Below, piece after piece: positions 307-32,361 of a stretch of DNA of 64,000 nt (its first letter is position 1; every line of letters starts with the position of its first letter). This stretch comes from Candidatus Azotimanducaceae bacterium (GTDB lineage: Bacteria > Pseudomonadota > Gammaproteobacteria > Pseudomonadales > Azotimanducaceae). Under the pieces are notes generated by a model. It saw nothing but the letters and a program-made list of their open reading frames with translations. It searched no databases and was not told where the DNA came from. The stretch lies in the NCBI GenBank assembly GCA_965216695.1, contig OZ244212.1, positions 4,128,035 to 4,192,034 of the forward strand, written 5' to 3'. Position numbers and translations under genes: made by a program.

Positions 307-319
307 GTCGGTATGAGCG

Positions 320-11394: not shown

Positions 11395-11397
11395 ACG

Positions 11398-18399: not shown

Positions 18400-19830
18400 T
18401 TAACCAGGTCGATCCTCCTCGTCGGCCGCGGCGAGCGCCGTTCGAACGCCTGAGTATTGTGGCTGATCGATGAGTGCCTGCGTGAGTGTCGCAAATCGCA
18501 GGTAGTCCTGCAGCGCCGCATCAGTCAGACGCACATTCCCCGCGCGTAGCCGCCGGCACAACAGCTCTTTCAGTGTGACGTAGTCGCCGCGCGTTTCCAG
18601 CAGGTCTTCGAGCAGAGCTGTCTCTCGGGTTCGGTACGCGGATCCGTATTCGCTGTCGCGTTGCAGAATATCGAGAGAATTTGCGGCGACGCGCGCGAGA
18701 AACTGGGTTCTTCCGGTGGTAGACGCCATGACATCGCCGCGTAGAAAGTCGCGGACGCTGGTCAGCAATTCATCGTTGCGAGGCATGCTCTTGTCGCGCG
18801 TGGCTGCGCCCACCTCCGGCAACGCTACCGTGCCAGGAATCAACAGGTTCGCGCAATCGATCTGGCACTCCGAACTGCGCCGGCCGATGGCGGGACGCTC
18901 GACGGTTGCGTCCGGGCCCGTACGGTAATGTTCCGCCATCGTAAGGCAGCCGATGGCCCAGCTGAAGGAGCCGTAGACGATCCAGAACGCAACGCGTTGG
19001 GCATCTACCGCTTTGCCGCTGATCGCGCTGTACCCGGCAAAAAGATCGTCGAGATTGCCGAACCCGCCCACGGTTTGTTGCGTGTTTCCAAACCGCCACG
19101 AGTTGGTGCACAGCCAGCCAAGGTCGCGCATCGGATCGCCGACGTGGGCGCCTTCCCAATCCAGTACGCCAACGATTCCGTCCTGCGGCGTTACCATCAA
19201 ATTGCCATTACGGAAATCGCCGTGGACAAGCCGCAGGTCGCTGTGTTCGGGCAGATTGTCCAGCAACCATCGGGCCGTGTAGTCGATCATTGGCTGCGGC
19301 GTATCAAACGTCTGGTAGCGATCCCACGCCAAACGAATGACGTCGCCCGTGTCGCGCTGTTCGAGTTTACTTCGCAGACCACCTTGGTCGACGTCGATCG
19401 CGTGGATGCGGGCCAGTAGCTCGCCGCATTGGTATGCGAGCTTGCCGCGGATGTCGGCAAAGGCGTCGCCGCGAGCAATGCGCGCGCCAAGCGTCTCGCC
19501 GTCAAGCCACTGCATGACGAATCCGGGCCCGAGGTCGTCTGAGGGTTGCAGTACGTAGTGGACGTCCGGCTCCGGGACCCCGGCGTTGGCCGCGGCGCGG
19601 AAGAGGGCGGCTTCTACTTCAAGTCCGGGTTGGCCGGGCGCTTGTTCACTGACGACGCCCCCGGCGGCGCGGCGCAGGCACAGTGGCATGTCGCCCGCGG
19701 CGGTTTCGATAACGAGTCGATAAGTTTCCTGATTGGCGCCGCCGGAAAGGCGTTCACAGTGCTGCAGCGAGACAAACCCACCAATCTCCCGCGACAGGAT
19801 GGTTTCCAGGGCTGGCTCGATGGTGTTCAT
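18400..19830 (-). CDS. phosphotransferase (APH/choline kinase-like) family protein with extra C-terminal domain
   Basis: Kinase catalytic loop LVHGDFRNGNLMV and VLDWEGAHVGDP. The start was set at MNTIEPALE; the upstream extension would run into the neighbouring divergent gene. Confidence 0.75.
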   Translation of the reverse strand: MNTIEPALETILSREIGGFVSLQHCERLSGGANQETYRLVIETAAGDMPLCLRRAAGGVVSEQAPGQPGLEVEAALFRAAANAGVPEPDVHYVLQPSDDLGPGFVMQWLDGETLGARIARGDAFADIRGKLAYQCGELLARIHAIDVDQGGLRSKLEQRDTGDVIRLAWDRYQTFDTPQPMIDYTARWLLDNLPEHSDLRLVHGDFRNGNLMVTPQDGIVGVLDWEGAHVGDPMRDLGWLCTNSWRFGNTQQTVGGFGNLDDLFAGYSAISGKAVDAQRVAFWIVYGSFSWAIGCLTMAEHYRTGPDATVERPAIGRRSSECQIDCANLLIPGTVALPEVGAATRDKSMPRNDELLTSVRDFLRGDVMASTTGRTQFLARVAANSLDILQRDSEYGSAYRTRETALLEDLLETRGDYVTLKELLCRRLRAGNVRLTDAALQDYLRFATLTQALIDQPQYSGVRTALAAADEEDRPG

Positions 19831-19968
19831 CGGATGCTCGCAAGGATAGTTAGTGGACGGATGCTTAGTATAGTCGTCTTGCGCCAATCTGCCGCCAGGC
19901 GCACGGCGCCTTGGTATCTGTGTTCTGTGCGCTGATTGCATACGAGATTCTCGCTACACTGCCAAGCG

Positions 19969-22209
19969 ATGACCACCGCTGAGACATCCGGTACACCAAC
20001 TCCCGCCTATGAAGGAGAGGGCGGGTTCGTATTCGTGTGCTACTCGCACGAGGATTCGGATTCCGTTTATCAGGCGATAAGCATCCTCACCGATGCCGAC
20101 GTCAACGTGTGGTACGACGAGGGCATTCGTCCAGGTGCCGAATGGACCGACGAGCTAGCGAATGCCATTACTAATTGTGATCGGTTCCTTTTTTTTGCCA
20201 CTCCGCGCTCCGTCGATTCACGTCACTGCCGTAACGAGATTCAGTTTGCGATCAACTGCGACAAGGAAATTCTCGTTGTGTATCTTGAAGCGACGCAGCT
20301 GACGCCGGGTCTGGAACTGGCGTTGGGGTGGCGACAGGCGCTGATTCGATCGCAACTCGACGAGTCCACGTACGCGCGGCGCCTGGTGGCCGCCGTATCC
20401 GCGTCCAGTGATAGCGACGACATGGCCAAGTCCGGGCCGACCGGAACGCGCGGCGTGGTGACGCGCCGATGGGGTCGCCGCGCCGTCGCATGGATTGCGG
20501 TGCTCGGGGTGGTTCTCAGTGGCGTGCTGTATTGGATACTGGGTGCGCGTACGCCGTTACGAGCGTCCGGGCAGTCGACGTCGATCGCGATGCTGCCGTT
20601 GCAGAACCTCGGCGGCTTCGCAGACGATACGTACTTTCCAGACAGTTTCTCGGAGGATCTGCTCAATCGACTAGTGTCGGTGGAAGGTCTGTCCGTGGTG
20701 TCGCGGAGGGCATCTTTCGGGTTTCGCGAGACCCCGGGCAACCGTATAGATCTTGCGGAGGTTGCCGTCACGCTCGGCGTACGCAATATCTTGTCGGGTT
20801 ACGTTAGAAAAGTTCAAGACTCGTTGCACCTGAGTCTGGAGCTGGTGGAAGTGAAAGACGATTTGCCCACTATCCGTTGGAGCAAACGATACGAAGATCG
20901 ACCGATGTCGGAAGTACTCGCAATCCAGGCTGAGGTAACCAGGTTGGTGGCTTCAGAGTTTTTCCCTGGGGGCTTGAGCGATGAAACCCGGGTTCGCGTC
21001 GCTAATCACTCCACTGACAATGTGGAAGCGTACAACAGCTATCTCGAGGCGCGTGGCATTCTGCGAAAGCCCCTGAACGCCGCGCTCATAGATCGTGCGG
21101 CCGCGCTGTTCGATGCGGCAGTTGCGCTCGATCCGGAGTTTGCCTGGGCACGCGCCGGATTGTGCTCGACATACACGCTCGAGTACCGGCGTGAGGGAAC
21201 CTTCGCCAACGCGACGAACGCATGCGAAGCCCTGACGGGGTATGCGGTGGAACTTTTCGAAGTTCGACTCGCGTTGGGTGAATACCTGGTGGAAATTGGC
21301 GAAACGGAACGCGCCGTGACGGAACTTCAGGGCGCGGTGCAACTGAATCCGAACTCGGCGGATGCGCGAATCGGACTCGCGCGATCTCTCGCCGCGCGAT
21401 TTACAGCGAACAACACCGAGCTGGACCGGGTGCGTGCCGAAGAAGCGTATCTAGAAGGGATAGCGCTCGAGCCGACCTACTGGTTTGCACATCATGCGTA
21501 TGCGAGCTATCTGATCTCGCGTGGCGAGCTCGACGAGGCCCAGAGACAACTCGAACGATCGCTTGAACTGGAACCGGACAACCCATCCACGTCGAATAAT
21601 CTTGCGAATGTTTTGTTTCGCAAGGGAGAGAACGATGCGGCCGTCTTGATCTGGAACGCGGTGCTTGAGAAGGACGCCGGCAACCGATGGGCACACAGCG
21701 GCCTTGGCATACTGCACCACTATGATCGTGAGTTCTCGAAGGCAATAGATCATTTTCGTAGCGCCATCGATGCGGCGGGTGCCGATCACCAACTGTGGGG
21801 GCGTCTCGGTGAATCCGCTCGGCTGCTTCCTGATCGGCAGGTGGAATCACAGAAAGCGTTCGGCGAAGCGATAGCGTTAGCGCGCGAGTCGTTGCAGTTT
21901 GATCCCCGGGACTGGCAGACAAAGGGCTACATAGCCCTCTACTCGGCGTATTTGGGCGATTTTGAAACGGCAGAGGCGTCTCTCAAAGAGATGTTTGCGC
22001 TGAATTCGAGTCGAGAGCCGATGACGCACTACTGGGCCGCGTTGATTGCGTACGAGCAGGGCGAGCTGGAACGGACGTTCGCGGAGCTGGAGCAGGCTCT
22101 GCGATCGGGTTTCGACCAACAGAAGAAGTTTATCGCAGACGAGCCCGCGCTCGATGCACTTCGCGCAGAAGCGCCGGAAAGGTTTGATGCGCTAATTCGA
22201 CGCTTCTGA
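19969..22209 (+). CDS. TIR domain - TM - TolB-N-like - TPR receptor-like protein
   Basis: N-terminal TIR_2-type sequence FVFVCYSHEDSDSVYQAI...VNVWYDEGIRPGAEW...FLFFATPRSVDSRHCRNEIQFA. One TM follows (AVAWIAVLGVVLSGVLYWIL), then SIAMLPLQNLGG...YFPDSFSEDLL (as in the CadC-like paralogue) and about 400 aa of TPR repeats. Confidence 0.8.
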   Translation: MTTAETSGTPTPAYEGEGGFVFVCYSHEDSDSVYQAISILTDADVNVWYDEGIRPGAEWTDELANAITNCDRFLFFATPRSVDSRHCRNEIQFAINCDKEILVVYLEATQLTPGLELALGWRQALIRSQLDESTYARRLVAAVSASSDSDDMAKSGPTGTRGVVTRRWGRRAVAWIAVLGVVLSGVLYWILGARTPLRASGQSTSIAMLPLQNLGGFADDTYFPDSFSEDLLNRLVSVEGLSVVSRRASFGFRETPGNRIDLAEVAVTLGVRNILSGYVRKVQDSLHLSLELVEVKDDLPTIRWSKRYEDRPMSEVLAIQAEVTRLVASEFFPGGLSDETRVRVANHSTDNVEAYNSYLEARGILRKPLNAALIDRAAALFDAAVALDPEFAWARAGLCSTYTLEYRREGTFANATNACEALTGYAVELFEVRLALGEYLVEIGETERAVTELQGAVQLNPNSADARIGLARSLAARFTANNTELDRVRAEEAYLEGIALEPTYWFAHHAYASYLISRGELDEAQRQLERSLELEPDNPSTSNNLANVLFRKGENDAAVLIWNAVLEKDAGNRWAHSGLGILHHYDREFSKAIDHFRSAIDAAGADHQLWGRLGESARLLPDRQVESQKAFGEAIALARESLQFDPRDWQTKGYIALYSAYLGDFETAEASLKEMFALNSSREPMTHYWAALIAYEQGELERTFAELEQALRSGFDQQKKFIADEPALDALRAEAPERFDALIRRF

Positions 22210-22304
22210 TGCTGCGTGCATTGCGGCTGGAGCCGGCCGATCCAACGACTTGATTTCGTTGAACCTCGGGCGCAGACTGATCGCGAATGCCAGAGGGGAA
22301 TGAG

Positions 22305-22472
22305 ATGACAGAACTTCTTGAATCGAGCGACGGGACAAGTCGCTTCCGTCAATTTTTGCAAATGATCGGTGACGACGACAAGCCGAAACCGGGACCGCCC
22401 GATGACGTGCCGAAACCGGGGCCTCCGGACGACGTGCCGAAACCCGGCCCGCCGCCGACTGACCCGCACTGA
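22305..22472 (+). CDS. Pro-rich tandem-repeat microprotein (55 aa), hypothetical
   Basis: A GAGGGG SD lies ~7 nt before ATG 22305. The product is MTELLESSDGTSRFRQFLQMIGDDDKPKPGPPDDVPKPGPPDDVPKPGPPPTDPH. It starts 96 nt after the TIR gene stop on the same strand. Confidence 0.35.
   Translation: MTELLESSDGTSRFRQFLQMIGDDDKPKPGPPDDVPKPGPPDDVPKPGPPPTDPH
22383..22460 (+). repeat. 2.9 x 27-nt tandem repeat encoding (P)KPGPPDDV units
   Basis: CCGAAACCGGGACCGCCCGATGACGTG (22383-22409), CCGAAACCGGGGCCTCCGGACGACGTG (22410-22436), and the partial unit CCGAAACCCGGCCCGCCGCCGACT. Confidence 0.8.
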
Positions 22473-22478
22473 TTGCGC

Positions 22479-22503
22479 CGTGGCGTTTCGCGGAGACGCC
22501 GCG
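22479..22503. terminator. possible bidirectional hairpin between convergent transcription units
   Basis: CGTGGCGT (22479-22486) pairs with ACGCCGCG (22496-22503), 8 bp including one G-U, with a 9-nt loop. It lies between the stops at 22472 and 22504. No T-tract. Confidence 0.3.
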
Positions 22504-23292
22504 TCAAACGGTAAACGGGGCCTCGGCGTCGTATTCTTCTGAGTGGGCGCCGAGCCGTGCGAGCACAGGTTTTTGTTTGTCCGGCATCAACGCGTACATA
22601 CGCTCGAAGAGTCCCGGGTAACCTCCAGCAGATGTATCATCCAGGGCGTCAAGCAGCGCGGAGGTCAGGCGTCCGTGCTGCCGGGTGCTGTTCTCGTAAG
22701 AGAGCTGATCTTCGTGACACCCGGCAAAGTGCGTAATAAACGCGCCTACGGGTTCTCTGGGTGGGAGCTCCTTGCGAATCCTCGAATACATTTCGGGGTC
22801 GAGATAACGAATGATCTCGCTCGTATCGTCGTCCATGGCTTTTGCGACATCGTCGTCGCTGCCGCGGAGCATCGAGCCTGAGTGACAACAGTCTGTAATG
22901 AAAAGGACGCGTACACCGGGCTGAAACGTTTGCCACAACGCGTACAGTTCGTCGTCAATCAACTGTCCATCGTGAAGACACATCGTTTCGTCCTTCCCGT
23001 TTTCTTCGTCCCCGTCCTTGTCCCGCGTCCGGTTACCGTGCCCAGAATAATAGAGAACGAACAGATCGCCTGATGTAAGCGTTTTTGCGGCGGAGCGGAT
23101 TTCGGAAACGACTCGGTCCTTCGTACCGTCTTTGGAGAGCAGGATGGTATTTGTTAACCCGTGCGCTGCGGTGACGTCGGCGACTGCTAACGCGTCACGC
23201 TCGGCAAATCGGAGCTTGCCGTCCCATTCGCCGCCGTAACTGTTTTTGTCGCACAGGTTCATGCCGACAAGGCATGCAAGACCTTTTTTCAT
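22504..23292 (-). CDS. peptidase C14 caspase-family protein (orthocaspase), stand-alone catalytic domain
   Basis: Catalytic His context LFVLYYSGHGNR and catalytic Cys context VLFITDCCHSGS. GAGGAG SD upstream. No signal peptide and no accessory domain. Confidence 0.85.
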   Translation of the reverse strand: MKKGLACLVGMNLCDKNSYGGEWDGKLRFAERDALAVADVTAAHGLTNTILLSKDGTKDRVVSEIRSAAKTLTSGDLFVLYYSGHGNRTRDKDGDEENGKDETMCLHDGQLIDDELYALWQTFQPGVRVLFITDCCHSGSMLRGSDDDVAKAMDDDTSEIIRYLDPEMYSRIRKELPPREPVGAFITHFAGCHEDQLSYENSTRQHGRLTSALLDALDDTSAGGYPGLFERMYALMPDKQKPVLARLGAHSEEYDAEAPFTV

Positions 23293-23334
23293 TCGCGTTC
23301 TCCTCGTAATGTATTCATGACGTGTGGTTGGATG

Positions 23335-24120
23335 TCACTGGCAGCGGCTTTTCTCCCAACGGATGTCTAACGCTACGCGTTCATTTGGCGCCTCCAGCGT
23401 CTCCGCCCGACGCAACCACAAACATACATTCTCAGCGGGCAGGTCGCAGACAAGTTGGGGAAGGCCGGCGTTGCGACGTTGGCATACGCCGGATTGAGCC
23501 AGGTTGGTGGTCAAAAAATTTCGGCCTGTCAGCACGATGGTCTGTTCGAGGTCGCTCGTAAGGAAGTGAGCGTGAAACGTCGCGAGACATCGGTCTGCCG
23601 TGCATGGCTCATCGGAACCGACGAGCGTCAATTTGAAATTTGCGTCAGGCACGGCCCAGAATTCGTCGTTCGTATTCACGAACGCCGAGCGGTGCCAGGT
23701 GGGCACGGCGCCCGCCGCATTCATTCGGACCGCAGACGGGAGAATATAAATGTCACCGTCTCGCGTTCCGGAATGTTCGTGGATGGGTGCATAGGGGTGT
23801 TCGTGAGCGGGTGCGTAAGGATGCTCGTGGGCTGGTGCGTAGGGGTGGTCGTGCACGAGCGCGTACTGGTCGTGGCGGTGTGTCTTGCTTACCGGGTCGG
23901 GGGCTGTCAGTAACGGCCACGCGACCGACAGTGGGATGTAGATCGCGGCGATCGTGCCCCCCCAGACCATGACGTTCCGGACAACCTGTTCCCAGCGTCG
24001 CGCGGACGCCTGCACCGATTCGGACCTTTGGCTCAGGATTGCTATTTCCGTGTCCGAGCGCTTTTGGTCCTGCGCAGGGGCAGGGTCATTCGGGTTGGGG
24101 TCTTTGTTGTGTTCGTTCAT
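23335..24120 (-). CDS. single-pass membrane protein with His-rich octapeptide repeats and Cys-rich C-terminal domain, hypothetical
   Basis: The start ATG 24120 overlaps the upstream stop (ATGA). A charged N-terminus is followed by one TM (VMVWGGTIAAIYIPLSVAWPLL), then HDHPYAPAHEHPYAPAHEHPYAPIHEH, then a ~150-aa domain with six Cys. Confidence 0.6.
   Translation of the reverse strand: MNEHNKDPNPNDPAPAQDQKRSDTEIAILSQRSESVQASARRWEQVVRNVMVWGGTIAAIYIPLSVAWPLLTAPDPVSKTHRHDQYALVHDHPYAPAHEHPYAPAHEHPYAPIHEHSGTRDGDIYILPSAVRMNAAGAVPTWHRSAFVNTNDEFWAVPDANFKLTLVGSDEPCTADRCLATFHAHFLTSDLEQTIVLTGRNFLTTNLAQSGVCQRRNAGLPQLVCDLPAENVCLWLRRAETLEAPNERVALDIRWEKSRCQ
23773..23844 (-). repeat. 3 x 24-nt tandem repeat encoding HEHPYAPA units
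   Basis: Plus-strand units at 23773-23796, 23797-23820 and 23821-23844 (e.g. GTGTTCGTGAGCGGGTGCGTAAGG), with a degenerate fourth unit following. Confidence 0.8.
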
Positions 24121-25226
24121 TTCGGGGTATCGCCGGTGTGCTCGAGCCATGCGATCAGCTCGGCCACGCGGCCCCTGTCCAGTTCTCGTTCGGCGCGCGC
24201 AGGCGGAAGGAGGCTCACCAGTTTTAGCAGGCGGACAATCACCGGCGCGCCTGCAAATAGACGCAGGTAACCGGCCAGGCGGCCTAAGGTAACCCCGGAG
24301 AGCATGGCCATGATCGCGAACGGTTCGTACTTGCCGATGCCACAGGCGAATGCGGCTAAGAAGCTCCTGTCTTTGGCGTCACAATCACCGTCGTTCAACA
24401 TCCAGCCGAGCAGGTACCAGCCGAGTAACGCCACCGCGAGCCCGAAAAGGACTTTCAGACCGTCGGCCTGCAGGATGCGCTGCCGGTTAGTAACAAGGTC
24501 ACGGATCCGAGTCTGTAGATACAAAGCTTTTCTCGGCGGTGACATGTCGCGTTCCTCGACAGGAATAGGCGCGATGACCTGGTCGAGTATGGATTCGTCA
24601 ACAACTTCGAAGTGGTAAGTCGTTTCCGTAATGCCGTCAAGATCGGCGAGTTGCTGCCGAATTTCTCGAAGCGTCATACCGCGTTGCAGTGCGTCGTAGA
24701 AGAAGGCGGAAAACTCGGCCGCTGCGCTGCTCTGCACAGGTAGCGTTGTGCCTACGATGCAGTCGGCCACGCCTCTCATGTTCCGAGCAAGACCCGCCGA
24801 CCAGCAGCAGTTCAGGACGACTATGCGAATGCCTTTTCCGCGTAGTGCTTCTACCAACCACTCGTTGGGTACGTACTCTCCGAAGATCTTTTCGTCTTTG
24901 AGAATGAGAGCAGCGCCCCACTCGGCCTCCTCAGCCTCAGTCGCAGCGCGTTCGCCGTGACCGCTGAAATGCAGAACAGTCACGGGCCGTTCTGCGAGGT
25001 GGCGGTGAACGTCCTCGCGGCGTACTTCCGGAACCACCTCAAGTTCGACCCGGCCTTCGCTACGTGCGTCGAATAGCGCTTCGGTGACACCGCTGAGTTC
25101 GGGCCACAGATCCAACTTCTCGTATTTCGCAAGCGCTTTTTGACGATCCGGTTCGCCCTGAGCGACAAAGGTATCTGGGTCCGGTTTAACGAACTGGGGG
25201 TTTGCGGTGAGGTAGAGAATTCTCAT
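24117..25226 (-). CDS. CHAT-like caspase-fold protease domain fused to C-terminal transmembrane segments
   Basis: MRILYLTANPQ... followed by VTVLHFSGHG (His) and IRIVVLNCCWSAG (Cys), the spacing and context typical of CHAT domains. The C-terminus has hydrophobic helices (LKVLFGLAVALLGWYLLGWML, FAIMAMLSGVTLGRLAGYL, FAGAPVIVRLLKLVSLL). The start is uncertain; ATG 25313 is the alternative. Confidence 0.7.
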   Translation of the reverse strand: MRILYLTANPQFVKPDPDTFVAQGEPDRQKALAKYEKLDLWPELSGVTEALFDARSEGRVELEVVPEVRREDVHRHLAERPVTVLHFSGHGERAATEAEEAEWGAALILKDEKIFGEYVPNEWLVEALRGKGIRIVVLNCCWSAGLARNMRGVADCIVGTTLPVQSSAAAEFSAFFYDALQRGMTLREIRQQLADLDGITETTYHFEVVDESILDQVIAPIPVEERDMSPPRKALYLQTRIRDLVTNRQRILQADGLKVLFGLAVALLGWYLLGWMLNDGDCDAKDRSFLAAFACGIGKYEPFAIMAMLSGVTLGRLAGYLRLFAGAPVIVRLLKLVSLLPPARAERELDRGRVAELIAWLEHTGDTPK

Positions 25227-25278
25227 TCGTGCGCCATGTGTTGAGTGTCGGAAAGCGGAGCCGCGATGAATCGGTTCA

Positions 25279-28200
25279 TCAGAATGCTGCCATTGCGTCG
25301 ATGAAAAACCCATCCGACCGGTACGTGCCGCGTCTCAAGTCATCGTCGAAGCCCGAGAAGTTGTAGCCCACGCCGAACCTCAAGCTGCCGATGAATCGAG
25401 AATTCAGCAAGCGCGGATCAATGTGCTTGTACAGACCCACGAGTACGCCGGTTGACGATGCGTCGGCCTTTCGATCGATCAGGGTGCGATACTCGGTGAG
25501 CAGTTCGACCGGGTTGTGTGCAAAGTCGTCTGAACCGGTGTCGCCGAAGCGGTAGCCGAATCCCGCCACGATCATTCCCAGACTCACGTCCTGCCAGCCG
25601 CCGACACCGCGCCGCAGTCGCTGTCGACCTTCTCGATAAGCGAGTTTGCCTTTTAACTGAAAACGCGGGGAGAGCTCGAATATTCCCTCGGTCGACAGCA
25701 GGTGACTGCGTTCATCACCGGGGGTGCCAATCTGCCCCGGCGTCCCTACGTCGTGCAGAAGTCCGTACCGAACGAGCGCATTGAATCTATCCGAACGAAC
25801 CGGGCGATAAGCGAAGCCCGCATTGAGTTCTATGAATCGGCCCGACGTGCGATCTGTCATTCGATCCCGAACGAGTGCGGCATTCAGTCGCGCGACGAGC
25901 CTGCGGTTGTCGTCGATCAGATACGAGAACTCACTTGCGGTGACGAACTGATGATTGTCGACCGATTGGCCTTCGTCACGACGCAGCTCTAATCGGCTGT
26001 GCAGTCGCCAGTTCTCCGCTGTGTAGGTTCCACCGATGCTGGTTGCCATGCGTTCGAACTCCCCGCGATCGCTCACCACACGGCTGCCCTGAAAGGTGGT
26101 CGCAAGCGTGAGGTTGTTCGACAGATCGTAGTCCAGACCGAATACGTGGCCGGTACTGGCTTCCCGGTTCATGCGACCGACTCTCGACTCGCCGTACAGT
26201 GCTAGCCTATTGCCGAGCGCCTGCCGCTGGCCAAACGTGAGCAGGCTGCTCTCTGTGTCGGTGCGGTCCGGGTTGACGGAGTAACTTCCGTACAGCTCTC
26301 GTCCTTCCGCCAGCTGATAGCGGCTTGCGAACTGCGTGGTTGCGCCAGAGCCGACACCACCGGATACGTTGAAGACGGTCGCGGAGCCTAGCGCGTAGTC
26401 AATCCCACCCAGCAATGCGCTGCCTCGGTCGCCTTTGCTGATTTCGACGCTCAACGCAACGCTGTCGTTCATCTGGCGGTTAACGCCCGTGCTCAGTAAT
26501 CGATTGTCGCCGTAGTCACGGTCCGAATGGACGTCGTGTTGCGCCGTTCCATACACGGTCGTCGACTCGTCGACGCGTCGCGCAACGCGCATACCGGCAA
26601 CACCTCCCTGTCCGTTTCGAGTTCCGGAGAAAAGTATCGGCGTGTCGATCGCATCCGCGGTTACGTCGTCCCATCGGATCTCTGAGTCCAGCTGCCAGCA
26701 GCGCTCGTCGACATCACAACGCCAGTGTTTAGACAACTGGAATCGCGCGTTGCGCTGTGTAAGTCCATCGGACCGTTCAAGCGACGCCATGCCGGCGAGC
26801 ACTCTCAATCCTCCACCGATGTCGCTGTCGAGGTTGAAGCCGGTATCGGTCTCGTTAGCGGGGCCGTTAAAACGGCTGGACGCGAAACCCGCGTCGCGCT
26901 TTTGCCACCATGCCTGTACGTATCCGGGGCGATCTTTGAAGTCGGCTAGGTCGATTCGGGTGTCGAGTGCGAATGCGTGCGCGTGTCCTGCATGCGTCGG
27001 CGACGCTCGGTTGTTCGGAAGGTTAAAGGAGAGTCCACCGTCGAACGAGGCGTTGCCTCGAACCGTGTTGCCGTTGCTGGCCGCGACTTCCGCCGCAACG
27101 TAGGTGCCCGACGAGTGGCGCCAGGTAACGTCCAATGCATCGAGCCGATGGTCGTCTGATCCTTGCTCGTCGGTAACGTGCGTTAGACCAACCGACACGC
27201 GGTCAGCCAGCCATGTTTTGCCACGCACGCCGTACACCAGATCCTGGGCGCTGAACTCCGCAGGAACGTGTTCGTAGTCAATATGCAAGAAGACGCGTTC
27301 GCCCTGTAACGCCTCATTCCGCACCACCGGATTGTGTCTTTCCCGAACGACCTGAGACAGCGGCCGCTTCAGTAAGAGACGGCCGTGGGCCGGATCGAAT
27401 TCGTAGTCTGCGCCCGGGGTCAGCAACTGACGTTCTTCGAGTTGAGTCGTTCCGTTCCGGCGCACTTCAACCCAGACTTTCTCGGAGCCCATCACTACGT
27501 CGGTATCCGGAAGATAGTAGAGGGATCCGCCCGTTGCCAGGAACGAAGCATTTGCGGAAACTGACTGCGCCTCGGATGCAAAGAGCTCAATCTCGTAGCG
27601 CCGGTCCCCGAAAACGGTCGCCAATGCGCTGGTCTTTGTTAGACGCAAACCGTAGAGCGATCGGTCGAAGTATCCGAGTTGAGTGTCGGTAAACGCGGTC
27701 TCGAAATTGCCCCACAGCGCTCTGTTGCGTCTGTACGCAATCTCAGCGTACATCGAACCCTGGGATTCGGCTGCCATGATTGTTGTTGAATCATCACCAT
27801 AGGTTGGATAGTAGTTGTCGGTGTCGAGACGGCGAAACAGACGTTGCCGGTCGCGCGCCGCGACGTTGTCGTTCAGATCGCGAAGCGGCGCGTGGGAGGA
27901 GTCAAACTGCACAGTCCACTCCAACGGAGCTCCATCGGTGTCGCCGCCAACGTGGCGAACGCCTTGCCAGAATCCGGCCACTCGGCCGTCTCCGAACAGC
28001 CCGCGGTCCAGATCCGCTGGACCGCCGAAGGTGTCCAACGCGCCGTTCGCCGTACTGGACCCCACGGTAAGGTCGACGATGGCAGCGAATCGTTGCCGGT
28101 TGTCGGCTGATCCTACGACAGGAACGCTTATGTCTGGAAGTATCGGACCGCTTGCGTTCAATCGCTGGGCCGCCAGAAGTTCGCCACCTACAATATCGAG

Positions 28201-31200
28201 CCTTGAAGAAACGGGTCCACAGATACCTACCGTGCGCGGCCGTTTCCAGCGCCCGTCGGGGGTCGTGCGCCATCTCGATACGCGGTAGCCGATCCGCGAG
28301 TCTGTCACAAGCGGGTGCGTCGTTAGCGTGGGATCACGTACGAATAGAAACAACGCCTCCCAGTCTGTTGAGTGGGCAGGTCCGGAGGGTAAGAACGAGC
28401 CGCGATAGAACTCGATCGTCTGTTCTGCTTCAACGGTGACGATGCGATTCGTTTCCTCCGCATCACGCCAGCAGGCTGTTGCCTCACGATCGTATGCGTC
28501 ACTCGAGGTCGCCGCTGACGGACGCATGCACATCTCGATCGCGCTGTGATGGTGATTGGTGAATCTGAAGGCGTATAGCTGATTTGCGTCGTCTGCCTGG
28601 GCGTCGAGCGCCGTACGGATATCGCAACACTCGAGCACGGCGGTTCGGTTCTCGGCCGAAAAGATTGCATCGTCCTGATAGAAACGCTGATCGCGTCGTA
28701 CTTCAACCACACCTCGTCGACCGCCGTGCTGGGGGGGTTGTTCGAACCCGGCAGCTTCGACATGCCGGGCAGCTAAAGCGGACTGCGCGAGTGACGTCTT
28801 CTCGGTAGCGTTCCAGATGCCGGCGATGTTTGCAGCTAAACGACTTTGATCGACGATCAATCGCTCGCGCACGTCGTTGTTTCCGTTGCGACGCCGACTG
28901 ACGAGGTAGGGCACGTGTGCGGGAAGTTTCAGATTGCTGGTTGCTAGAAGATTGATCGTCTGGTCGGAAGTTGGGTAGTAACGATTGTTCGCGGGCACTT
29001 CCAGTGCGCGCTCCTTGGTCCAATCGACATCTGCGAGTGTTGGCTGTGTACCGGAGAAAGGGTCCCGACAGAGTCCGCCGAAACTGGGGTACGCATAGAG
29101 GCGATAGCGCAACCGGTCCCGCGCGCGAACGTCTGCGACATTCACCTTGATAGTGGTGCCGGATGATTCCGCGCGCCGAATACCGCGCCAGGTCGAATCC
29201 GGCGCTTCCGGTTGTGACACCGCAACCAGGTGGCATTGGGCGGCGTCGGTGTAATTCGATTCCGACTTGAACTGAAATGTCCAGCCTTCGGCTCCGCGTT
29301 CTGCAGACTCCAGGGCTATGTGGAGCTTCTTCTCGCGATCAAACGACCCTACGTAATCCAGTTGTTCGAAGTCGCCACAACAATCGCTGGATACGCGTTC
29401 ACTCTGCCAATGGACTGCGAAGTTGGCTTTTGCGAGCCCGCCCGGTACCAGACGCACGAACTGTTTCGGATCCGAATGGATGACCGTCAATCGGTCGCCC
29501 GGAATGGATCCGGGGTCCAGTTTCACCAGATAGTTCCTGCCGGTACTCGGAACGTCGATGTCGGCGATGTGGTACCTGCCGTGCTGATCCGTGCGAATGA
29601 TCAATCCCTCGGGCGTCAACAGCACTGCCCCAGGAATCCCGTTTTCGTCGTCTCCAGACTGTACCCCGTCGCGATTTCGATCGTTGAACACCTTGCCGAT
29701 TACGGTGGCTTTCTGAAACAACGGATCGGCCACCACGTTCACCGTGGCTTCGTCGCTCGTGGGCTGGCTAACGGGGCTGCGGGCAACGGAGTGGTTTGTA
29801 TGGGGTCCGATCGATGCCGCAGGCGTGACTCGGCTCCGAAACTGAATCAGCACGGTTTCGCTCTGAGCGAGGTCAAAGGGGGCAAACGTCAGCTGCGGAC
29901 CGACTTCGACCGCTATCGGGATGCGTTCGTCATCGGTGGTACCCAGCCGGCCATCCGCGCCGGCGCGAACTAGTTCGGCCGCGTCGGACGCCGGACGGAA
30001 TGCCGGCGGGCCTGAATCTGTGACAGTCACCGCCCTCTGATCGCCGGGGAGCGTGTTGCGGATCGAAATTGAATAGGTGACGTGCCGCCCGACCATCGTG
30101 GTGACCGGGTTGGCTTCCACGGTCAATTGCAGGCCGGATACGGGCGCGTTCCGATAGGGGATTGGCGTTGGCACGTCCTCGTCGGGTATCCCATCCCCGT
30201 TCGGGTCGGCGTCTGCACCGTTCGTCGACACGTCCGTCTCTATGCCACCAACGGTGGCGACGGCACTGTTGAAGATCTCCCCCGTATCTGCCCGCGGCGT
30301 GAATCGCACGTTGAACTGCACGTGTGCGCGTGCTCCGGCGGGCATTGCATCGGTGCCCTGTAACAGACGCAGGTCGCTCCTCCCGTCGAAACTCGGATTG
30401 ATCGCCAGGGTTTCCGACTGAAGTGTTCCGGGTACAACCTCGAACGAATCGGCAGCCGCAAACGTGGTGACGAGGTCGTCGATCACGGATACCTGTTCTA
30501 CAGTGGATTCACCGAGGTTTTCCAGGGCGATCGTGATAGTCGTCTCGCGTTGCGAACCGGATACGACCCGTCCGAAGGACGCGGCCTTTGCCAGTCCGAG
30601 ATGCGAAGCGATTGGTTGCACGTTGAATGGAATGGGCGTTGGGTCGAACTCTTCCGGCGATCCATCGCCGTCGGGATCGGGGTTCGCTCCGTTCGTCGAA
30701 TCGTCGCTCACACCCCGCCGCGCGGATGCGAACGCCTGGTTGAGAAATGGCGAAGCGGTTGTGCCGGGTTGGAATCGTACGGTCAACGACACGGACGCGG
30801 TATCGCCAGCGGCCAGACGGTCGCTGCCGTGTAGCAGCAGTGTTTGTTGATCTCCGTCGAACGACGGGTTGATCGTTAGCTTGGAAGACGCCAGGCTCAA
30901 TACTTGAAACGATTCCGCATCGGCAAACGTCTGAGCCAGCGAGTCGACGATCTGTAGGTCGTGTGCGATAGCGTTCCCGAAGTTTTGCACGCGGAAAATC
31001 AACGGTACCGTGAATCCGCCACCTTCTGCCGATTCGACCTCACCGGCCCGCTTTGCCAACCCCAGAATGGCAAAGGGCAGATCAATCATGGTGGGAGCGC
31101 ATCCCGCTTGGGCAGTGGTCAGTTCGTCAGGACGCGAGCAATCGGAAAACGTACTACGGAAGCGTGCATTTTCCGCCGTAACCTCCGCCGAATTCCGAAA

Positions 31201-31629
31201 CGGTCCGATGTGTGAGGCTGGGTCGATGTCTGCGGTGAATGTAACGGTTCCCGTCTGGTCCCGTCGCAGCGTTTCGCCTGGTGCTAACAACCGGTGGTCG
31301 ACGCGGCCGTCAAATTCGGGGTTCGCCGTCGCGAAGCGGCCACCGACCGCCACGGAGTGAATGCGAACCAGCGTTGCTGGTGCGATTGAGTCCGCGACCG
31401 CGTCGGACACCTGGACTTCCGACGCAACCAGATCGCCAGTATTGCGTACCGAAATCTGCATCCGCACCGCGAAACTACCGTCCGCGTTCTCTGAGGTGGA
31501 TAGTACCGTTTTGCGCAGTGACAGCGCGAGATCCGGATAGGCGGGCGCCGAGGCGATCGCTAATAAGCAGATGACCGTCGCGCAGGTGACGCGTCGCACG
31601 AACGCACGGTCACAGCCGGTTTCCCCCAT
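25279..31629 (-). CDS. giant (2116 aa) surface/outer-membrane protein: signal peptide, DUF11-type Ig-like repeats, SdrD-B-like domain, C-terminal beta-barrel-like region
   Basis: AGGAG SD before ATG 31629, signal VTCATVICLLAIASAPA. There are four ~150-aa repeats, two ending in STNGANPDPDGDGSPEEFDPTPIPF / STNGADADPNGDGIPDEDVPTPIPY, then VIGKVFNDRNRDGVQSGDDENGIPG. The last ~700 aa have an alternating beta-strand pattern ending ...FFIDAMAAF (terminal Phe). Confidence 0.8.
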   Translation of the reverse strand: MGETGCDRAFVRRVTCATVICLLAIASAPAYPDLALSLRKTVLSTSENADGSFAVRMQISVRNTGDLVASEVQVSDAVADSIAPATLVRIHSVAVGGRFATANPEFDGRVDHRLLAPGETLRRDQTGTVTFTADIDPASHIGPFRNSAEVTAENARFRSTFSDCSRPDELTTAQAGCAPTMIDLPFAILGLAKRAGEVESAEGGGFTVPLIFRVQNFGNAIAHDLQIVDSLAQTFADAESFQVLSLASSKLTINPSFDGDQQTLLLHGSDRLAAGDTASVSLTVRFQPGTTASPFLNQAFASARRGVSDDSTNGANPDPDGDGSPEEFDPTPIPFNVQPIASHLGLAKAASFGRVVSGSQRETTITIALENLGESTVEQVSVIDDLVTTFAAADSFEVVPGTLQSETLAINPSFDGRSDLRLLQGTDAMPAGARAHVQFNVRFTPRADTGEIFNSAVATVGGIETDVSTNGADADPNGDGIPDEDVPTPIPYRNAPVSGLQLTVEANPVTTMVGRHVTYSISIRNTLPGDQRAVTVTDSGPPAFRPASDAAELVRAGADGRLGTTDDERIPIAVEVGPQLTFAPFDLAQSETVLIQFRSRVTPAASIGPHTNHSVARSPVSQPTSDEATVNVVADPLFQKATVIGKVFNDRNRDGVQSGDDENGIPGAVLLTPEGLIIRTDQHGRYHIADIDVPSTGRNYLVKLDPGSIPGDRLTVIHSDPKQFVRLVPGGLAKANFAVHWQSERVSSDCCGDFEQLDYVGSFDREKKLHIALESAERGAEGWTFQFKSESNYTDAAQCHLVAVSQPEAPDSTWRGIRRAESSGTTIKVNVADVRARDRLRYRLYAYPSFGGLCRDPFSGTQPTLADVDWTKERALEVPANNRYYPTSDQTINLLATSNLKLPAHVPYLVSRRRNGNNDVRERLIVDQSRLAANIAGIWNATEKTSLAQSALAARHVEAAGFEQPPQHGGRRGVVEVRRDQRFYQDDAIFSAENRTAVLECCDIRTALDAQADDANQLYAFRFTNHHHSAIEMCMRPSAATSSDAYDREATACWRDAEETNRIVTVEAEQTIEFYRGSFLPSGPAHSTDWEALFLFVRDPTLTTHPLVTDSRIGYRVSRWRTTPDGRWKRPRTVGICGPVSSRLDIVGGELLAAQRLNASGPILPDISVPVVGSADNRQRFAAIVDLTVGSSTANGALDTFGGPADLDRGLFGDGRVAGFWQGVRHVGGDTDGAPLEWTVQFDSSHAPLRDLNDNVAARDRQRLFRRLDTDNYYPTYGDDSTTIMAAESQGSMYAEIAYRRNRALWGNFETAFTDTQLGYFDRSLYGLRLTKTSALATVFGDRRYEIELFASEAQSVSANASFLATGGSLYYLPDTDVVMGSEKVWVEVRRNGTTQLEERQLLTPGADYEFDPAHGRLLLKRPLSQVVRERHNPVVRNEALQGERVFLHIDYEHVPAEFSAQDLVYGVRGKTWLADRVSVGLTHVTDEQGSDDHRLDALDVTWRHSSGTYVAAEVAASNGNTVRGNASFDGGLSFNLPNNRASPTHAGHAHAFALDTRIDLADFKDRPGYVQAWWQKRDAGFASSRFNGPANETDTGFNLDSDIGGGLRVLAGMASLERSDGLTQRNARFQLSKHWRCDVDERCWQLDSEIRWDDVTADAIDTPILFSGTRNGQGGVAGMRVARRVDESTTVYGTAQHDVHSDRDYGDNRLLSTGVNRQMNDSVALSVEISKGDRGSALLGGIDYALGSATVFNVSGGVGSGATTQFASRYQLAEGRELYGSYSVNPDRTDTESSLLTFGQRQALGNRLALYGESRVGRMNREASTGHVFGLDYDLSNNLTLATTFQGSRVVSDRGEFERMATSIGGTYTAENWRLHSRLELRRDEGQSVDNHQFVTASEFSYLIDDNRRLVARLNAALVRDRMTDRTSGRFIELNAGFAYRPVRSDRFNALVRYGLLHDVGTPGQIGTPGDERSHLLSTEGIFELSPRFQLKGKLAYREGRQRLRRGVGGWQDVSLGMIVAGFGYRFGDTGSDDFAHNPVELLTEYRTLIDRKADASSTGVLVGLYKHIDPRLLNSRFIGSLRFGVGYNFSGFDDDLRRGTYRSDGFFIDAMAAF

Positions 31630-31893: not shown

Positions 31894-32274
31894 ATGCGCG
31901 AGATTCGAACCCAAAAGTTGCTCGTACAGCTGTGGAAAACAGGTCCGGCCCTGTTTTGGCTGTTGGCGCTGTCGGGCTGTTCGAGTATGACTCCGCAACA
32001 GTGCCTTACCGCCGACTGGTACCTTGAAGGGTATGCGGCCGGTCTCGATGGCAAATCGCCTGTGGCATTCACATCGATCAACAATGGGTGCAACCTGCAC
32101 GGAATCCACATCGACAAACACCGGTTTGTGTATGGCTGGATAGCAGCTCAGCATTCGCGCTCCCCTGGCGACACACTGATTGCCGATACAGGCCGCAACG
32201 GAGCTGCGCAGAGCACCTCCGACAGGAACGACCATTCATCGACCACGGCGGTATCAGCTCCTTCAGGGCGGTAG
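31894..32274 (+). CDS. small lipoprotein (DUF2799-like)
   Basis: Lipobox LLALSGC followed by MTPQQCLTADWYLEGYAAGLDG, as I recall for DUF2799. Confidence 0.55.
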   Translation: MREIRTQKLLVQLWKTGPALFWLLALSGCSSMTPQQCLTADWYLEGYAAGLDGKSPVAFTSINNGCNLHGIHIDKHRFVYGWIAAQHSRSPGDTLIADTGRNGAAQSTSDRNDHSSTTAVSAPSGR

Positions 32275-32361
32275 GACGCCACTCACGATCAACTCTGGCA
32301 AGTTGCGCGCACCTGGTGTGCCGTGCAATCGTTGTGGTGAGCGTAATTGGATTGGGGGAGT

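What the first reader, a model, noticed from the sequence alone, without database searches (positions are those of the whole stretch)
24117..25226. CHAT-like caspase-fold protease anchored by C-terminal transmembrane helices
The N-terminal ~210 aa show the CHAT signature order (ILYLTANP..., HFSGHG, VVLNCCWS, ...FYDAL..G). The C-terminal ~120 aa contain two to three strongly hydrophobic helices. CHAT proteases are best known fused to TPR/NTPase modules or partnered with type III-E CRISPR. A membrane-embedded version placed between an outer-membrane giant and a single-pass membrane protein is unusual. It could couple envelope status to cytoplasmic proteolysis.
Basis: partly seen in the sequence, partly recalled or inferred. 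Interest (0 to 1): 0.6.

Follow-up and report, generated by a model that had tools for sequence, protein, structure and literature searches.

The report
Membrane-tethered CHAT protease in envelope cassette
The gene encodes a probably active caspase-like (CHAT) protease held at the inner membrane by a two-helix hairpin, and it always travels in a rare, undescribed gene cassette with a giant surface protein, a second caspase and usually a Toll-like TIR receptor, which suggests a cell-death or defence pathway triggered from the cell envelope.

Summary
Window 24117-25226 (-) encodes a 369-aa protein. Residues 1-215 are a CHAT domain (Pfam 39.9 bits, cut-off 24). Its His90/Cys140 align with the proven catalytic dyad of SAVED-CHAT (PDB 8TL0).

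The C-terminus is a two-helix membrane hairpin, not three helices, followed by a conserved cytoplasmic tail. Charge bias and the AlphaFold model place the protease domain and the tail in the cytoplasm.

The family is rare: about 20 clusters among 1.84 billion representative proteins, and 4 of 185,579 species genomes.

In all 9 distinct loci examined the gene sits in one cassette:
- a giant CLIPPER/DUF11 outer-membrane protein
- CHAT-TM
- an overlapping single-pass protein with an unmatched beta ectodomain
- a bare C14 orthocaspase

Where the contig allows, the cassette also has a Pro-rich microprotein and a TPR receptor. That receptor carries a cytoplasmic TIR domain in 5 of 7 loci.

My best reading (about 45%) is a membrane-proximal initiator protease. 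Envelope events would switch it on, and it would cleave the co-encoded caspase and/or the TIR tether, like the SAVED-CHAT to PCaspase cascade. None of this is shown.

Membrane-bound CHAT proteins as such are not rare. This family and its cassette appear undescribed.

The parts
24117..25226 (-). CHAT-TM gene (369 aa plus stop codon)
   Evidence: ORF. The start is confirmed by 19 homologues. Pfam CHAT scores above the gathering score. AF2 model mean pLDDT is 87.5.
24582..25226 (-). Cytoplasmic CHAT / caspase-fold domain, residues 1-215
   Evidence: Pfam CHAT covers residues 18-186. A profile search against PDB finds 8TL0 SAVED-CHAT at E 8.7e-25. Foldseek ranks 8TL0 first (E 4.8e-11), then caspases 3/4/8/9.
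24957..24959 (-). Codon of His90 (HFSGHG), predicted catalytic His
   Evidence: It aligns with chain residue 355 of 8TL0, which is H375 in the paper's numbering after a 20-residue offset that I inferred from the alignment. It is conserved in 28 of 29 family members.
24807..24809 (-). Codon of Cys140 (NCCWS), predicted catalytic Cys
   Evidence: It aligns with chain residue 402 of 8TL0, which is C422 by the same inferred offset. It is conserved in 28 of 29 members; P0127 has lost both residues.
24393..24539 (-). Long helix, residues 230-278: cytoplasmic stalk (230-256) running into TM1 (257-278; 24393-24458)
   Evidence: AF2 helix H230-278. KD 2.05. Wimley-White -12.5 kcal/mol. K+R density before TM1 is 0.16.
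24333..24392 (-). Predicted periplasmic loop, residues 279-298; hypervariable in length across the family (8-67 aa)
   Evidence: K+R density is 0.065 and D+E 0.13, against 0.15-0.16 K+R on both flanks. Some members have paired or multiple Cys in this loop.
24261..24332 (-). TM2, residues 299-322, with the conserved W-E-P...G-x-P-x-x-R motif (Arg316 kept in 26 of 29; K in two, Y in one)
   Evidence: Alignment. AF2 helix 297-338. Wimley-White is favourable in nearly all members.
24120..24260 (-). Cytoplasmic return stalk and conserved tail, residues 323-369 (PP..ERELxxGRI....WL)
   Evidence: Conserved columns. Helices 342-350 and 353-363. No Pfam family matches it in any of 29 members.
25279..31629 (-). 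Giant (2116 aa) secreted protein: signal peptide, CLIPPER/DUF11 repeats, SdrD_B-like domain, large C-terminal outer-membrane module ending in Phe. First gene of the operon.
   Evidence: The C-terminal 867 aa has at least 136 homologues, among them OMP_b-brl/OmpA-bearing proteins and proteins annotated as TonB-dependent receptors. It lies upstream of CHAT-TM in every locus.
23335..24120 (-). Single-pass membrane protein (261 aa): cytoplasmic helix, TM, His/Pro repeat linker, Cys-containing beta ectodomain. Start overlaps the CHAT stop codon.
   Evidence: ATGA overlap. Start/stop overlaps of 1-11 nt in all 8 loci where both genes were called. Alignment A3. The AF2 beta domain has pLDDT 80-90 and no PDB fold match. 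No Pfam, NCBIfam or PADLOC hit.
22504..23292 (-). Stand-alone C14 orthocaspase (262 aa), with no signal peptide and no accessory domain
   Evidence: Pfam Peptidase_C14 scores 60.6 bits. GSU0716 (PDB 3BIJ) matches at E 3e-41. Present in every locus that extends far enough.
22287..22472 (+). Pro-rich acidic microprotein with (PKPGPPDDV)n repeats
   Evidence: A counterpart with PKPG(P/V)P-type repeats occurs at the same position in L001, L004, L005, L006, L074, L077 and L079.
19969..22209 (+). TIR - one TM - TPR receptor-like protein (cytoplasmic TIR, periplasmic TPR)
   Evidence: Pfam TIR_2 at E 9e-20 plus TPRs. TM at residues 179-208. Orthologues occur in L004, L005, L077 and L079; L001 and L074 have TPR only, without TIR.
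31894..32274 (+). DUF2799-like lipoprotein, divergent from the giant gene
   Evidence: LSGC lipobox. Pfam DUF2799 scores 21.2 bits, just below the gathering score of 25. The same gene occupies the same position in L004, L005, L077 and L079.

Best explanation
The gene encodes an inner-membrane-tethered, catalytically competent CHAT (clan CD, caspase-fold) cysteine protease.

Anatomy: the protease domain (residues 1-215) and a conserved C-terminal tail face the cytoplasm. A helical hairpin (stalk-TM1, short variable periplasmic loop, TM2-stalk) holds the protein in the membrane.

Context: it is one part of a conserved envelope-spanning cassette. The sensing or structural parts lie outside the cytoplasm: the giant surface/outer-membrane protein, the ectodomain of the translationally coupled single-pass partner, the periplasmic TPR array and the DUF2799 lipoprotein. 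The enzymes lie inside: CHAT, a bare C14 orthocaspase and usually a TIR domain.

Proposed mechanism (inferred, not shown):
- A change at the envelope is relayed through the membrane partners. It could be a phage or another agent engaging or damaging the giant protein.
- That relay clusters or re-orients the hairpin-tethered CHAT domains. Caspase-fold enzymes are typically switched on by induced proximity or oligomerisation.
- The activated, membrane-proximal CHAT then makes specific cuts in co-encoded cytoplasmic targets. The most likely target is the stand-alone C14 zymogen, as SAVED-CHAT does to PCaspase. Another candidate is the juxtamembrane tether of the TIR receptor.
- This unleashes broad proteolysis and NAD+-based signalling or depletion, ending in growth arrest or cell death.
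- The Pro/Lys-rich microprotein may act as a brake or decoy.
For: Shown:
- CHAT membership and fold.
- His90/Cys140 align with the mutationally proven H375/C422 of SAVED-CHAT (bioRxiv 10.1101/2023.06.23.546230). The dyad is kept in 28 of 29 family members.
- A confident model (pLDDT 87.5) has two long antiparallel helices, 230-278 and 297-338.
- Hydrophobicity on two scales, and a positive-inside bias across 29 sequences (K+R 0.16 / 0.065 / 0.15), support the topology.
- The order giant, CHAT-TM, single-pass protein, C14 is strictly conserved in 9 distinct loci, down to about 29% identity and across phyla, with unrelated flanking genes.
- The CHAT stop and partner start overlap in 8 of 8 loci (and the gene tables).
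- C14 and CHAT have no signal peptide. TIR lies N-terminal to the TM segment.

Precedent:
- CHAT cleaves and activates a stand-alone C14 caspase, causing abortive infection.
- TIR plus a caspase-like protease form type IV Thoeris.
- Membrane-associated caspase systems have been predicted.

Lead: the short motif [AP][KR]xGP[PT] is almost confined to the microprotein repeats and the TIR juxtamembrane linker. Of 20 occurrences in 340,981 ORF residues, 18 are in cassette proteins.
Against: - There is no experimental or expression evidence. Only DNA-type or unlabelled metagenome runs hold the sequence.
- The cassette is not in a recognisable defence island. Its flanks are housekeeping or metabolic genes.
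- TIR is absent from 2 of 7 cassettes (L001, L074), so TIR signalling cannot be the core mechanism.
- No substrate is identified. The locus-specific covariation I looked for between the microprotein and the C14 linker is absent: observed score 177 against a permutation mean of 177.4.
- The shared Lys-Gly-Pro motif was defined after seeing the sequences.
- TM2 is only moderately hydrophobic and contains a conserved Arg.
- One family member (P0127) has lost the dyad.
- Relatives of the giant protein work without the cassette (L080, L081).
Confidence: 0.45

Rival explanations
1. Dedicated maturation or quality-control protease for the giant surface protein. CHAT-TM, with C14, would sit at the membrane next to the export machinery. 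It would process, license or degrade the 2100-3100-aa precursor, or clear jammed translocons. The cassette would then be a surface-protein biogenesis operon rather than a death or defence pathway.
For: - The giant gene is always the first gene of the same operon, immediately upstream.
- The flanks are not defence islands.
- The giant's C-terminal module belongs to a family used to display isopeptide-domain (CLIPPER/DUF7927) proteins.
Against: - The CHAT and C14 catalytic domains are cytoplasmic, while the giant protein has a cleavable Sec signal and acts outside.
- Close relatives of the giant protein (with an OmpA domain, or split barrel and passenger) lack any such proteases.
- A TIR domain in 5 of 7 cassettes and a second caspase have no obvious role in biogenesis.
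Confidence: 0.2
2. CHAT-2TM is itself the membrane-damaging effector. The hairpin has the N-in/C-in arrangement of class II holins (from my own knowledge, not tested). It would oligomerise into a pore once the protease domain is triggered or removes itself by autoproteolysis. This would resemble the 2-TM effectors fused to sensor domains in CBASS, Pycsar and Thoeris.
For: - Other, unrelated short CHAT proteins end in two TM helices without the conserved tail (P0197, P0224).
- Membrane-spanning effectors are common in TIR- and CBASS-type systems.
- A conserved S/T-P motif lies in the linker just before the stalk helix.
Against: - The dyad is conserved in 28 of 29 members, which argues that proteolysis of something matters.
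- TM2 carries a conserved Pro/Gly/Arg signature, and the tail is conserved, which looks more like a docking or signalling module than a bulk pore former.
- The protein has no ligand-sensing domain.
- The cassette already holds two plausible killers, C14 and TIR.
Confidence: 0.12
3. A regulatory protease in a non-lethal signalling pathway. One example is regulated proteolysis of a membrane-bound factor that controls expression or turnover of the surface protein, in the manner proposed for DdvA-type CHAT anti-sigma factors.
For: - Membrane CHAT proteins are linked to envelope signalling in DdvA.
- Earlier notes of this scan describe similar sigma / anti-sigma / CHAT cassettes (unchecked leads).
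Against: - None of the 9 cassettes has a sigma factor, anti-sigma factor or DNA-binding protein.
- The CHAT domain here is cytoplasmic, not periplasmic.
Confidence: 0.08

Closest known systems
SAVED-CHAT with PCaspase (Haliangium ochraceum type III-B CRISPR / CBASS hybrid; PDB 8TL0; bioRxiv 10.1101/2023.06.23.546230)
   Same: It is the best sequence and fold match for the CHAT domain (E 8.7e-25 and 4.8e-11). The catalytic His/Cys align. A stand-alone C14 caspase is encoded in the same cluster. The known logic is a specific CHAT protease activating a promiscuous caspase.
   Different: This protein has no SAVED domain, no cyclic-oligoadenylate source, and no CRISPR or CBASS genes nearby. It carries a C-terminal membrane hairpin and tail instead of an N-terminal sensor. 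The C14 here resembles GSU0716 and is minimal (262 aa). No sigma factor, kinase or PCi homologue was seen.
Type IV Thoeris (TIR plus caspase-like protease; bioRxiv 10.1101/2024.10.24.620036)
   Same: A TIR protein and a caspase-family protease share one cassette. In that system, TIR signalling activates an Arg-specific, promiscuous caspase that arrests the cell.
   Different: There the TIR is a short soluble protein, and the caspase has a C-terminal domain thought to bind N7-cADPR. Here the TIR is the cytoplasmic head of a TM-TPR receptor, the C14 has no extra domain, there is a second (CHAT) protease, and TIR is missing from 2 of 7 cassettes.
[quoted passage not shown]
   Same: A caspase-superfamily protease that often carries TM helices is paired with a single-TM partner thought to act as a membrane sensor. 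That system is also only predicted, not tested.
   Different: NCBIfam caspase_w_EACC1 scores 14 bits against a cut-off of 140. The single-pass partner matches no Pfam family. The gene order is reversed: the partner is 3' here and 5' there. That system is mainly actinobacterial and has variable C-terminal effector domains. It has no giant OMP, C14 or TPR partners.
DdvA (Myxococcus xanthus transmembrane anti-sigma factor with TPR-CHAT; PMC11506125)
   Same: It is a studied membrane-anchored CHAT protein, proposed to turn an envelope signal into proteolysis.
   Different: The DdvA CHAT domain is periplasmic, fused to TPR, and has an incomplete active site. Its cytoplasmic part is a zinc anti-sigma domain bound to an ECF sigma factor. 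Here the CHAT domain is cytoplasmic and there is no sigma factor.
   Same: It has the CHAT fold (Foldseek 8EEY_B, E 5e-4).
   Different: This protein has no fused TPR, and there are no Cas7-11, Csx30 or Csx31 genes nearby. It is a much weaker match than SAVED-CHAT.

Membership tests
CHAT domain (Pfam PF12770), clan CD caspase-fold peptidases | Profile score at or above Pfam's gathering score | tested here: met
   The score is 39.9 bits against 24. 28 of 29 family members match.
CHAT domain (Pfam PF12770), clan CD caspase-fold peptidases | Caspase/hemoglobinase alpha-beta fold | tested here: met
   The AF2 model has pLDDT 87.5. Foldseek finds SAVED-CHAT at E 4.8e-11, then caspases 3/4/8/9 at E 2e-4 to 1e-3.
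CHAT domain (Pfam PF12770), clan CD caspase-fold peptidases | His-Cys catalytic dyad in the canonical positions | tested here: met
   H90 (GHG) and C140 (NCC) align with residues 355 and 402 of chain 8TL0_A. These are H375 and C422 in the paper's numbering, by a 20-residue offset that I inferred. The dyad is conserved in 28 of 29 members.
CHAT domain (Pfam PF12770), clan CD caspase-fold peptidases | Demonstrated peptidase activity | not testable with these tools
   This needs biochemistry.
SAVED-CHAT (CBASS / type III CRISPR effector) | N-terminal SAVED cyclic-oligonucleotide sensor domain | tested here: not met
   The PADLOC SAVED_CHAT model matches only its CHAT part (positions 396-445 of 498). 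The protein starts directly with the CHAT domain.
Craspase / TPR-CHAT (type III-E) | Fused TPR array and neighbouring Cas7-11 / Csx30 | tested here: not met
   The protein has no TPR. No cas-like genes appear in the cassettes of 9 loci.
EACC1-associated caspase system (Kaur et al. 2020) | Caspase of the EACC1-associated type, with a 5' EACC1 single-TM partner | tested here: not met
   NCBIfam NF047832 scores 14.1 bits for CHAT-TM and 36.9 bits for C14, against a cut-off of 140. The single-pass neighbour is 3' and matches no Pfam family at E<=1.
Type IV Thoeris | Short soluble TIR plus a caspase-like effector with a C-terminal ligand-binding domain | tested here: not met
   The TIR is fused to TM-TPR. 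The C14 is 262 aa and matches 3BIJ over its whole length, with no extra domain. TIR is absent in L001 and L074.
Bitopic/hairpin inner-membrane protein (N-in, C-in) | Two membrane-spanning helices with positive-inside charge distribution | tested here: met
   KD and Wimley-White scans. K+R density is 0.16 before TM1, 0.065 in the loop and 0.15 after TM2 across 29 sequences. AF2 gives helices 230-278 and 297-338. This is prediction only; insertion was not shown.

The most novel reading that the evidence does not exclude
The cassette is a bacterial, Toll-pathway-like trans-envelope death circuit.
- A giant surface protein would serve as the tripwire.
- Its state would be read in the periplasm by the single-pass partner's ectodomain and the TPR array.
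- The hairpin-tethered CHAT would be the membrane-proximal initiator caspase.
- It would fire the soluble C14 executioner and cut the TIR head off its membrane tether at a Lys-Gly-Pro site.
- The tandem-repeat microprotein, carrying the same motif with Pro at P1', would act as an uncleavable pseudosubstrate brake.
Probability: 0.2. Interest if true: 0.85.

Novelty: new variant of a known kind. Interest (0 to 1): 0.62.

Why it matters
The caspase-family cascades and TIR signalling found so far in bacteria are triggered inside the cytoplasm, by cyclic nucleotides or by direct sensing of phage. A protease tethered to the inner face of the membrane would be different. It is wired to a giant surface protein, a periplasmic TPR receptor with a TIR head, and a second caspase. 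That arrangement would be a route by which events outside the cytoplasm start a proteolytic death or arrest programme, and it would be the closest bacterial analogue yet to receptor-proximal initiator caspases.

It also gives a defined, small, testable set: seven genes, two active-site dyads and one candidate cleavage motif. It adds two uncharacterised modules (the hairpin-tail module and the partner's beta ectodomain) to the parts list.

If the surface-protein biogenesis reading is right instead, this would be an unprecedented use of caspase-fold enzymes in envelope assembly.

Tried and rejected
- Microprotein as a locus-matched mimic of the C14 intersubunit linker: both share an acidic-x-x-(A/P)-K look. 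An exhaustive permutation test over 8 loci showed no locus-specific match (observed 177, permutation mean 177.4; 20,245 of 40,320 permutations at or above the observed value). I dropped the covariation claim and keep only the general resemblance.
- Fold of the single-pass partner's ectodomain: the model is good (pLDDT 80-90), but the best Foldseek PDB hit is E 0.07, so no assignment. An alignment-based homologue search found only 4 proteins.
- Giant protein against PDB by sequence: no hits for either half. Its outer-membrane nature rests on the signal peptide, the C-terminal Phe and annotated relatives.
- Searching metagenomes with the C-terminal hairpin module alone, to look for other N-terminal 'heads': the tool found no stretch conserved enough. 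Whether the module occurs with other domains remains open.
- Expression evidence: only DNA-type or unlabelled metagenome runs hold the sequence.
- Promoter and terminator scan of 19500-32500: fewer matches than in shuffles, so uninformative.
- L010 (Pirellulales) and L023 (Longimicrobiaceae), partial matches from the genome scan, are other CHAT proteins without the cassette.
- The longer 398-aa reading from ATG 25313 is rejected: it overlaps the giant gene, and no homologue has that extension.
Full report
**1. Observation**

The minus-strand ORF at 24117-25226 encodes 369 aa. A longer reading from ATG 25313 would overlap the end of the upstream giant gene. No homologue supports it: all 19 close relatives begin MRILYLTA..., and the giant gene's stop lies 52 nt upstream of this ATG.

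Pfam assigns residues 18-186 to CHAT at 39.9 bits, above the gathering score of 24. 28 of 29 family members hit CHAT individually.

**2. Anatomy**

A profile of the family finds one solved relative at E 8.7e-25: the SAVED-CHAT protease of Haliangium ochraceum (8TL0). In that alignment His90 and Cys140 pair with chain residues 355 and 402. With a 20-residue offset that I inferred from the alignment, these are H375 and C422. Mutating those two residues abolishes SAVED-CHAT activity (bioRxiv 10.1101/2023.06.23.546230).

An AlphaFold2 model built on 29 sequences is confident (mean pLDDT 87.5, pTM 0.67). It shows:
- a caspase-type alpha/beta domain to about residue 215
- a short conserved S/T-P linker
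- a 49-residue helix (230-278)
- a loop
- a 42-residue helix (297-338)
- two short helices (342-363)

Foldseek ranks SAVED-CHAT first (E 4.8e-11). Human caspases 3, 4, 8 and 9 and Csx29 follow.

**3. Membrane topology (predicted)**

- TM1 (257-278) is strongly hydrophobic: KD 2.05 and Wimley-White -12.5 kcal/mol.
- The second segment (299-322) is moderate. It is conserved in sequence (W-E-P-x-A-x-M...G-x-P-x-x-R) and favourable on the Wimley-White scale in nearly every member.
The model makes it the cytoplasmic continuation of helix 2.
- Across 29 sequences, K+R density is 0.16 before TM1, 0.065 in the loop (where D+E is twice K+R) and 0.15 after TM2.
- The loop varies from 8 to 67 residues and is Cys-rich in some members.

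Together these give an N-in/C-in hairpin. The protease domain and the conserved tail (PP..ERELxxGRI....WL) are in the cytoplasm. No Pfam family covers the hairpin-tail module.

**4. Family census**

- An exhaustive phmmer search of 1.84 billion representatives gives 3041 CHAT hits at E<=1e-3. About 20 of them are full-length relatives with the hairpin and tail (sequences).
- A pattern scan of one genome for each of 185,579 species finds full-length copies in four. These are a Pseudomonadota MAG, an uncultured Pseudomonadales, a Limisphaerales (Verrucomicrobiota) and a Candidatus Azotimanducaceae.
- The same scan of 241 million metagenome records adds two.
- The catalytic dyad is kept in 28 of 29 members. 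P0127 has HFNGLAD and LNDYW and is probably inactive.
- Membrane-bound CHAT proteins in general are not rare. By a crude hydropathy cut-off (KD at least 1.6 over 19 residues), 58 of 229 other hits have at least one hydrophobic window.
- About 20 of those, by eye, have a clear membrane anchor. They include N-terminal four-TM plus CHAT proteins and short CHAT plus two-TM proteins without the tail.

**5. Context: a conserved cassette**

Gene tables and tblastn on nine distinct loci show the same order on one strand: giant CLIPPER/DUF11 protein, CHAT-TM, a 256-342-aa single-pass protein, and a C14 orthocaspase of about 265 aa. The loci are the window, L001, L004, L005, L006, L008, L074, L077 and L079, plus the short L075.

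They include members only 25-35% identical, and their flanking genes are unrelated. L008 and L075 end before the C14 position.

Other conserved features:
- The CHAT stop and partner start overlap in every locus where both genes were called. In the window the overlap is ATGA.
- A Pro-rich, acidic microprotein with PKPG(P/V)P-type repeats occurs in 8 loci.
- A TPR protein occurs in 7 loci. In 5 of these it carries an N-terminal TIR and one TM. In L001 and L074 it has no TIR.
- A DUF2799-type lipoprotein is encoded divergently from the giant gene in at least 5 loci.
- None of the cassettes contains cas, CBASS, sigma or anti-sigma genes, or integrases. The flanks are ordinary metabolic genes.

**6. 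The partners**

*Giant protein.* It has a signal peptide and CLIPPER (formerly DUF11) repeats. A 2025 survey classifies that domain among intramolecular-isopeptide domains. It also has an SdrD_B-like domain and ends in ...AMAAF.

Its last 867 residues have at least 136 homologues. These include 1220-aa Luteimonas and Pseudoxanthomonas proteins annotated as TonB-dependent receptors, and many with OMP_b-brl or OmpA Pfam hits. A close relative with an OmpA domain (L080) lacks the protease genes. So does a barrel-only relative flanked by isopeptide-repeat proteins (L081). The cassette therefore attaches to one branch of a wider surface-protein family.

*Single-pass partner.* It has a long cytoplasmic helix running into its TM segment. 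A low-complexity linker follows (His/Pro repeats in the window). Its 120-aa beta ectodomain has invariant Trp and Cys residues. The ectodomain is modelled at pLDDT 80-90 but has no PDB fold match.

*C14 protein.* It matches the Geobacter protein GSU0716 (3BIJ) over its whole length at E 3e-41. It has no accessory domain and no signal peptide.

**7. Mechanism**

Shown:
- the identity, fold and dyad of the CHAT domain
- a consistent two-helix membrane prediction
- strict genetic linkage with the giant gene, the single-pass partner and C14, plus overlapping stop and start codons with the partner
- cytoplasmic placement of all three enzyme domains, against extracytoplasmic placement of the giant protein, the partner's ectodomain and the TPR array

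Inferred: signals from the envelope side reach the hairpin-tethered CHAT through its membrane partners and activate it by clustering or re-orientation. It then cuts co-encoded cytoplasmic targets.

The strongest precedent is SAVED-CHAT. That enzyme specifically cleaves and activates a stand-alone C14 PCaspase, and PCaspase then degrades many proteins and aborts infection. [quoted passage not shown]

A second candidate substrate is the TIR receptor's juxtamembrane tether. The motif [AP][KR]xGP[PT] occurs 20 times in 340,981 six-frame ORF residues of nine loci:
- 13 times in the microproteins
- 4 times in the TIR-to-TM linker (AKSGPT in the window)
- once in the CHAT-to-stalk linker of L004
- twice elsewhere

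I defined this motif after seeing the sequences, so it is a lead and not a test.

I put 0.45 on the initiator-protease reading. I put about 0.85 on the narrower statement that this is an active, hairpin-anchored cytoplasmic CHAT protease working with the giant protein, the single-pass partner and C14.

**8. Rivals**

- *Biogenesis or quality control of the giant protein (0.2).* This fits the operon order and the absence of a defence-island context. It does not fit the cytoplasmic catalytic domains, the TIR, or the cassette-free relatives of the giant protein.
- *Pore-forming CHAT-2TM effector (0.12).* This fits the class-II-holin-like topology and the wider occurrence of CHAT-2TM proteins. It does not fit the conserved dyad and tail.
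- *Non-lethal regulatory protease of the DdvA type (0.08).* There is no sigma factor or DNA-binding partner in the cassette.

**9. Comparison and membership**

The protein is a member of the CHAT family: score, fold and dyad were all tested and met.

It is not a member of four related systems:
- SAVED-CHAT, because it has no SAVED domain.
- Craspase, because it has no TPR and there are no cas genes.
- The EACC1 caspase system. NCBIfam scores 14 bits against a cut-off of 140, and the partner matches no Pfam family and lies on the other side.
- Type IV Thoeris, because the TIR and caspase architectures differ and TIR is dispensable.

DdvA is a membrane CHAT protein with the opposite topology. 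Full-text searches found no description of this cassette or of a CHAT-hairpin family. Absence from that library is not proof.

**10. Verdict**

The finding is a new variant of a known kind. It is a rare, cross-phylum, seven-gene envelope-spanning cassette built around two caspase-family proteases, one of them membrane-tethered. An earlier follow-up of this scan on the neighbouring TIR gene reached a compatible view. I re-derived the cassette conservation independently.

Limits:
- Everything functional is inference.
- All carriers found by name are MAGs, apparently uncultured.
- There is no expression evidence.
- Two ideas failed their tests: microprotein covariation and a fold match for the partner's ectodomain.

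Noticed in passing
window 22287-22472 (+); L001 12823-13020, L004 12948-13094, L005 12966-13115, L006 9525-9752, L074 2054-2218, L077 12736-12954, L079 16437-16691: A Pro-rich acidic microprotein (39-84 aa) with tandem PKPG(P/V)P-type repeats is conserved by position in 8 cassettes, next to the TPR gene. Its repeat motif [AP][KR]xGP[PT] recurs in the TIR-to-TM linker of 4 of 5 TIR receptors and almost nowhere else in 341 k ORF residues. The motif was defined post hoc.
   Followed up: partly
protein P0127 (metagenomic family member): One full-length CHAT-TM relative has lost both catalytic residues (HFNGLAD, LNDYW) but keeps the hairpin, the Arg and the tail. It is a likely pseudoprotease, which hints that the scaffold has a role beyond catalysis.
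   Followed up: no
L081 (Luteimonas sp. S4-F44, CP093340.1) 1-12144; L080 7001-15001: The giant protein's C-terminal 867-aa outer-membrane module also exists as a separate 1224-aa protein. That protein sits between a DUF7927 isopeptide-repeat protein of more than 2790 aa and a 480-aa CLIPPER protein. The module also occurs fused to OmpA domains. This looks like a wider, uncharacterised family of display or anchoring barrels for isopeptide-domain surface proteins.
   Followed up: partly
window 31894-32274 (+): A DUF2799-like lipoprotein (LSGC lipobox; Pfam 21.2 bits, just under the cut-off) is encoded divergently from the giant gene. The same arrangement occurs in L004, L005, L077 and L079, so it is probably a seventh cassette member.
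   Followed up: partly
proteins P0179, P0189, P0203, P0248 (N-terminal 4 TM plus CHAT); P0197, P0224 (CHAT plus 2 TM, 270-290 aa): Several other, unrelated membrane-bound CHAT architectures appear among the nearest CHAT hits. A census of membrane-tethered CHAT proteases might be worthwhile in its own right.
   Followed up: no
window 23335-24120 (-), residues about 90-125: The single-pass partner's linker is a His/Pro repeat (HEHPYAPA)n in the window. In every orthologue a different low-complexity sequence of different length replaces it, while the Trp/Cys beta ectodomain stays conserved and has no PDB fold match.
   Followed up: partly
window 22504-23292 (-), residues about 137-150: Immediately after the C14 catalytic Cys, 7 of 8 orthologues keep an acidic run followed by (A/P/V)-K-(A/G/S)-M. 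L074 differs. This is a candidate (auto)processing site at the position of the caspase intersubunit linker.
   Followed up: partly
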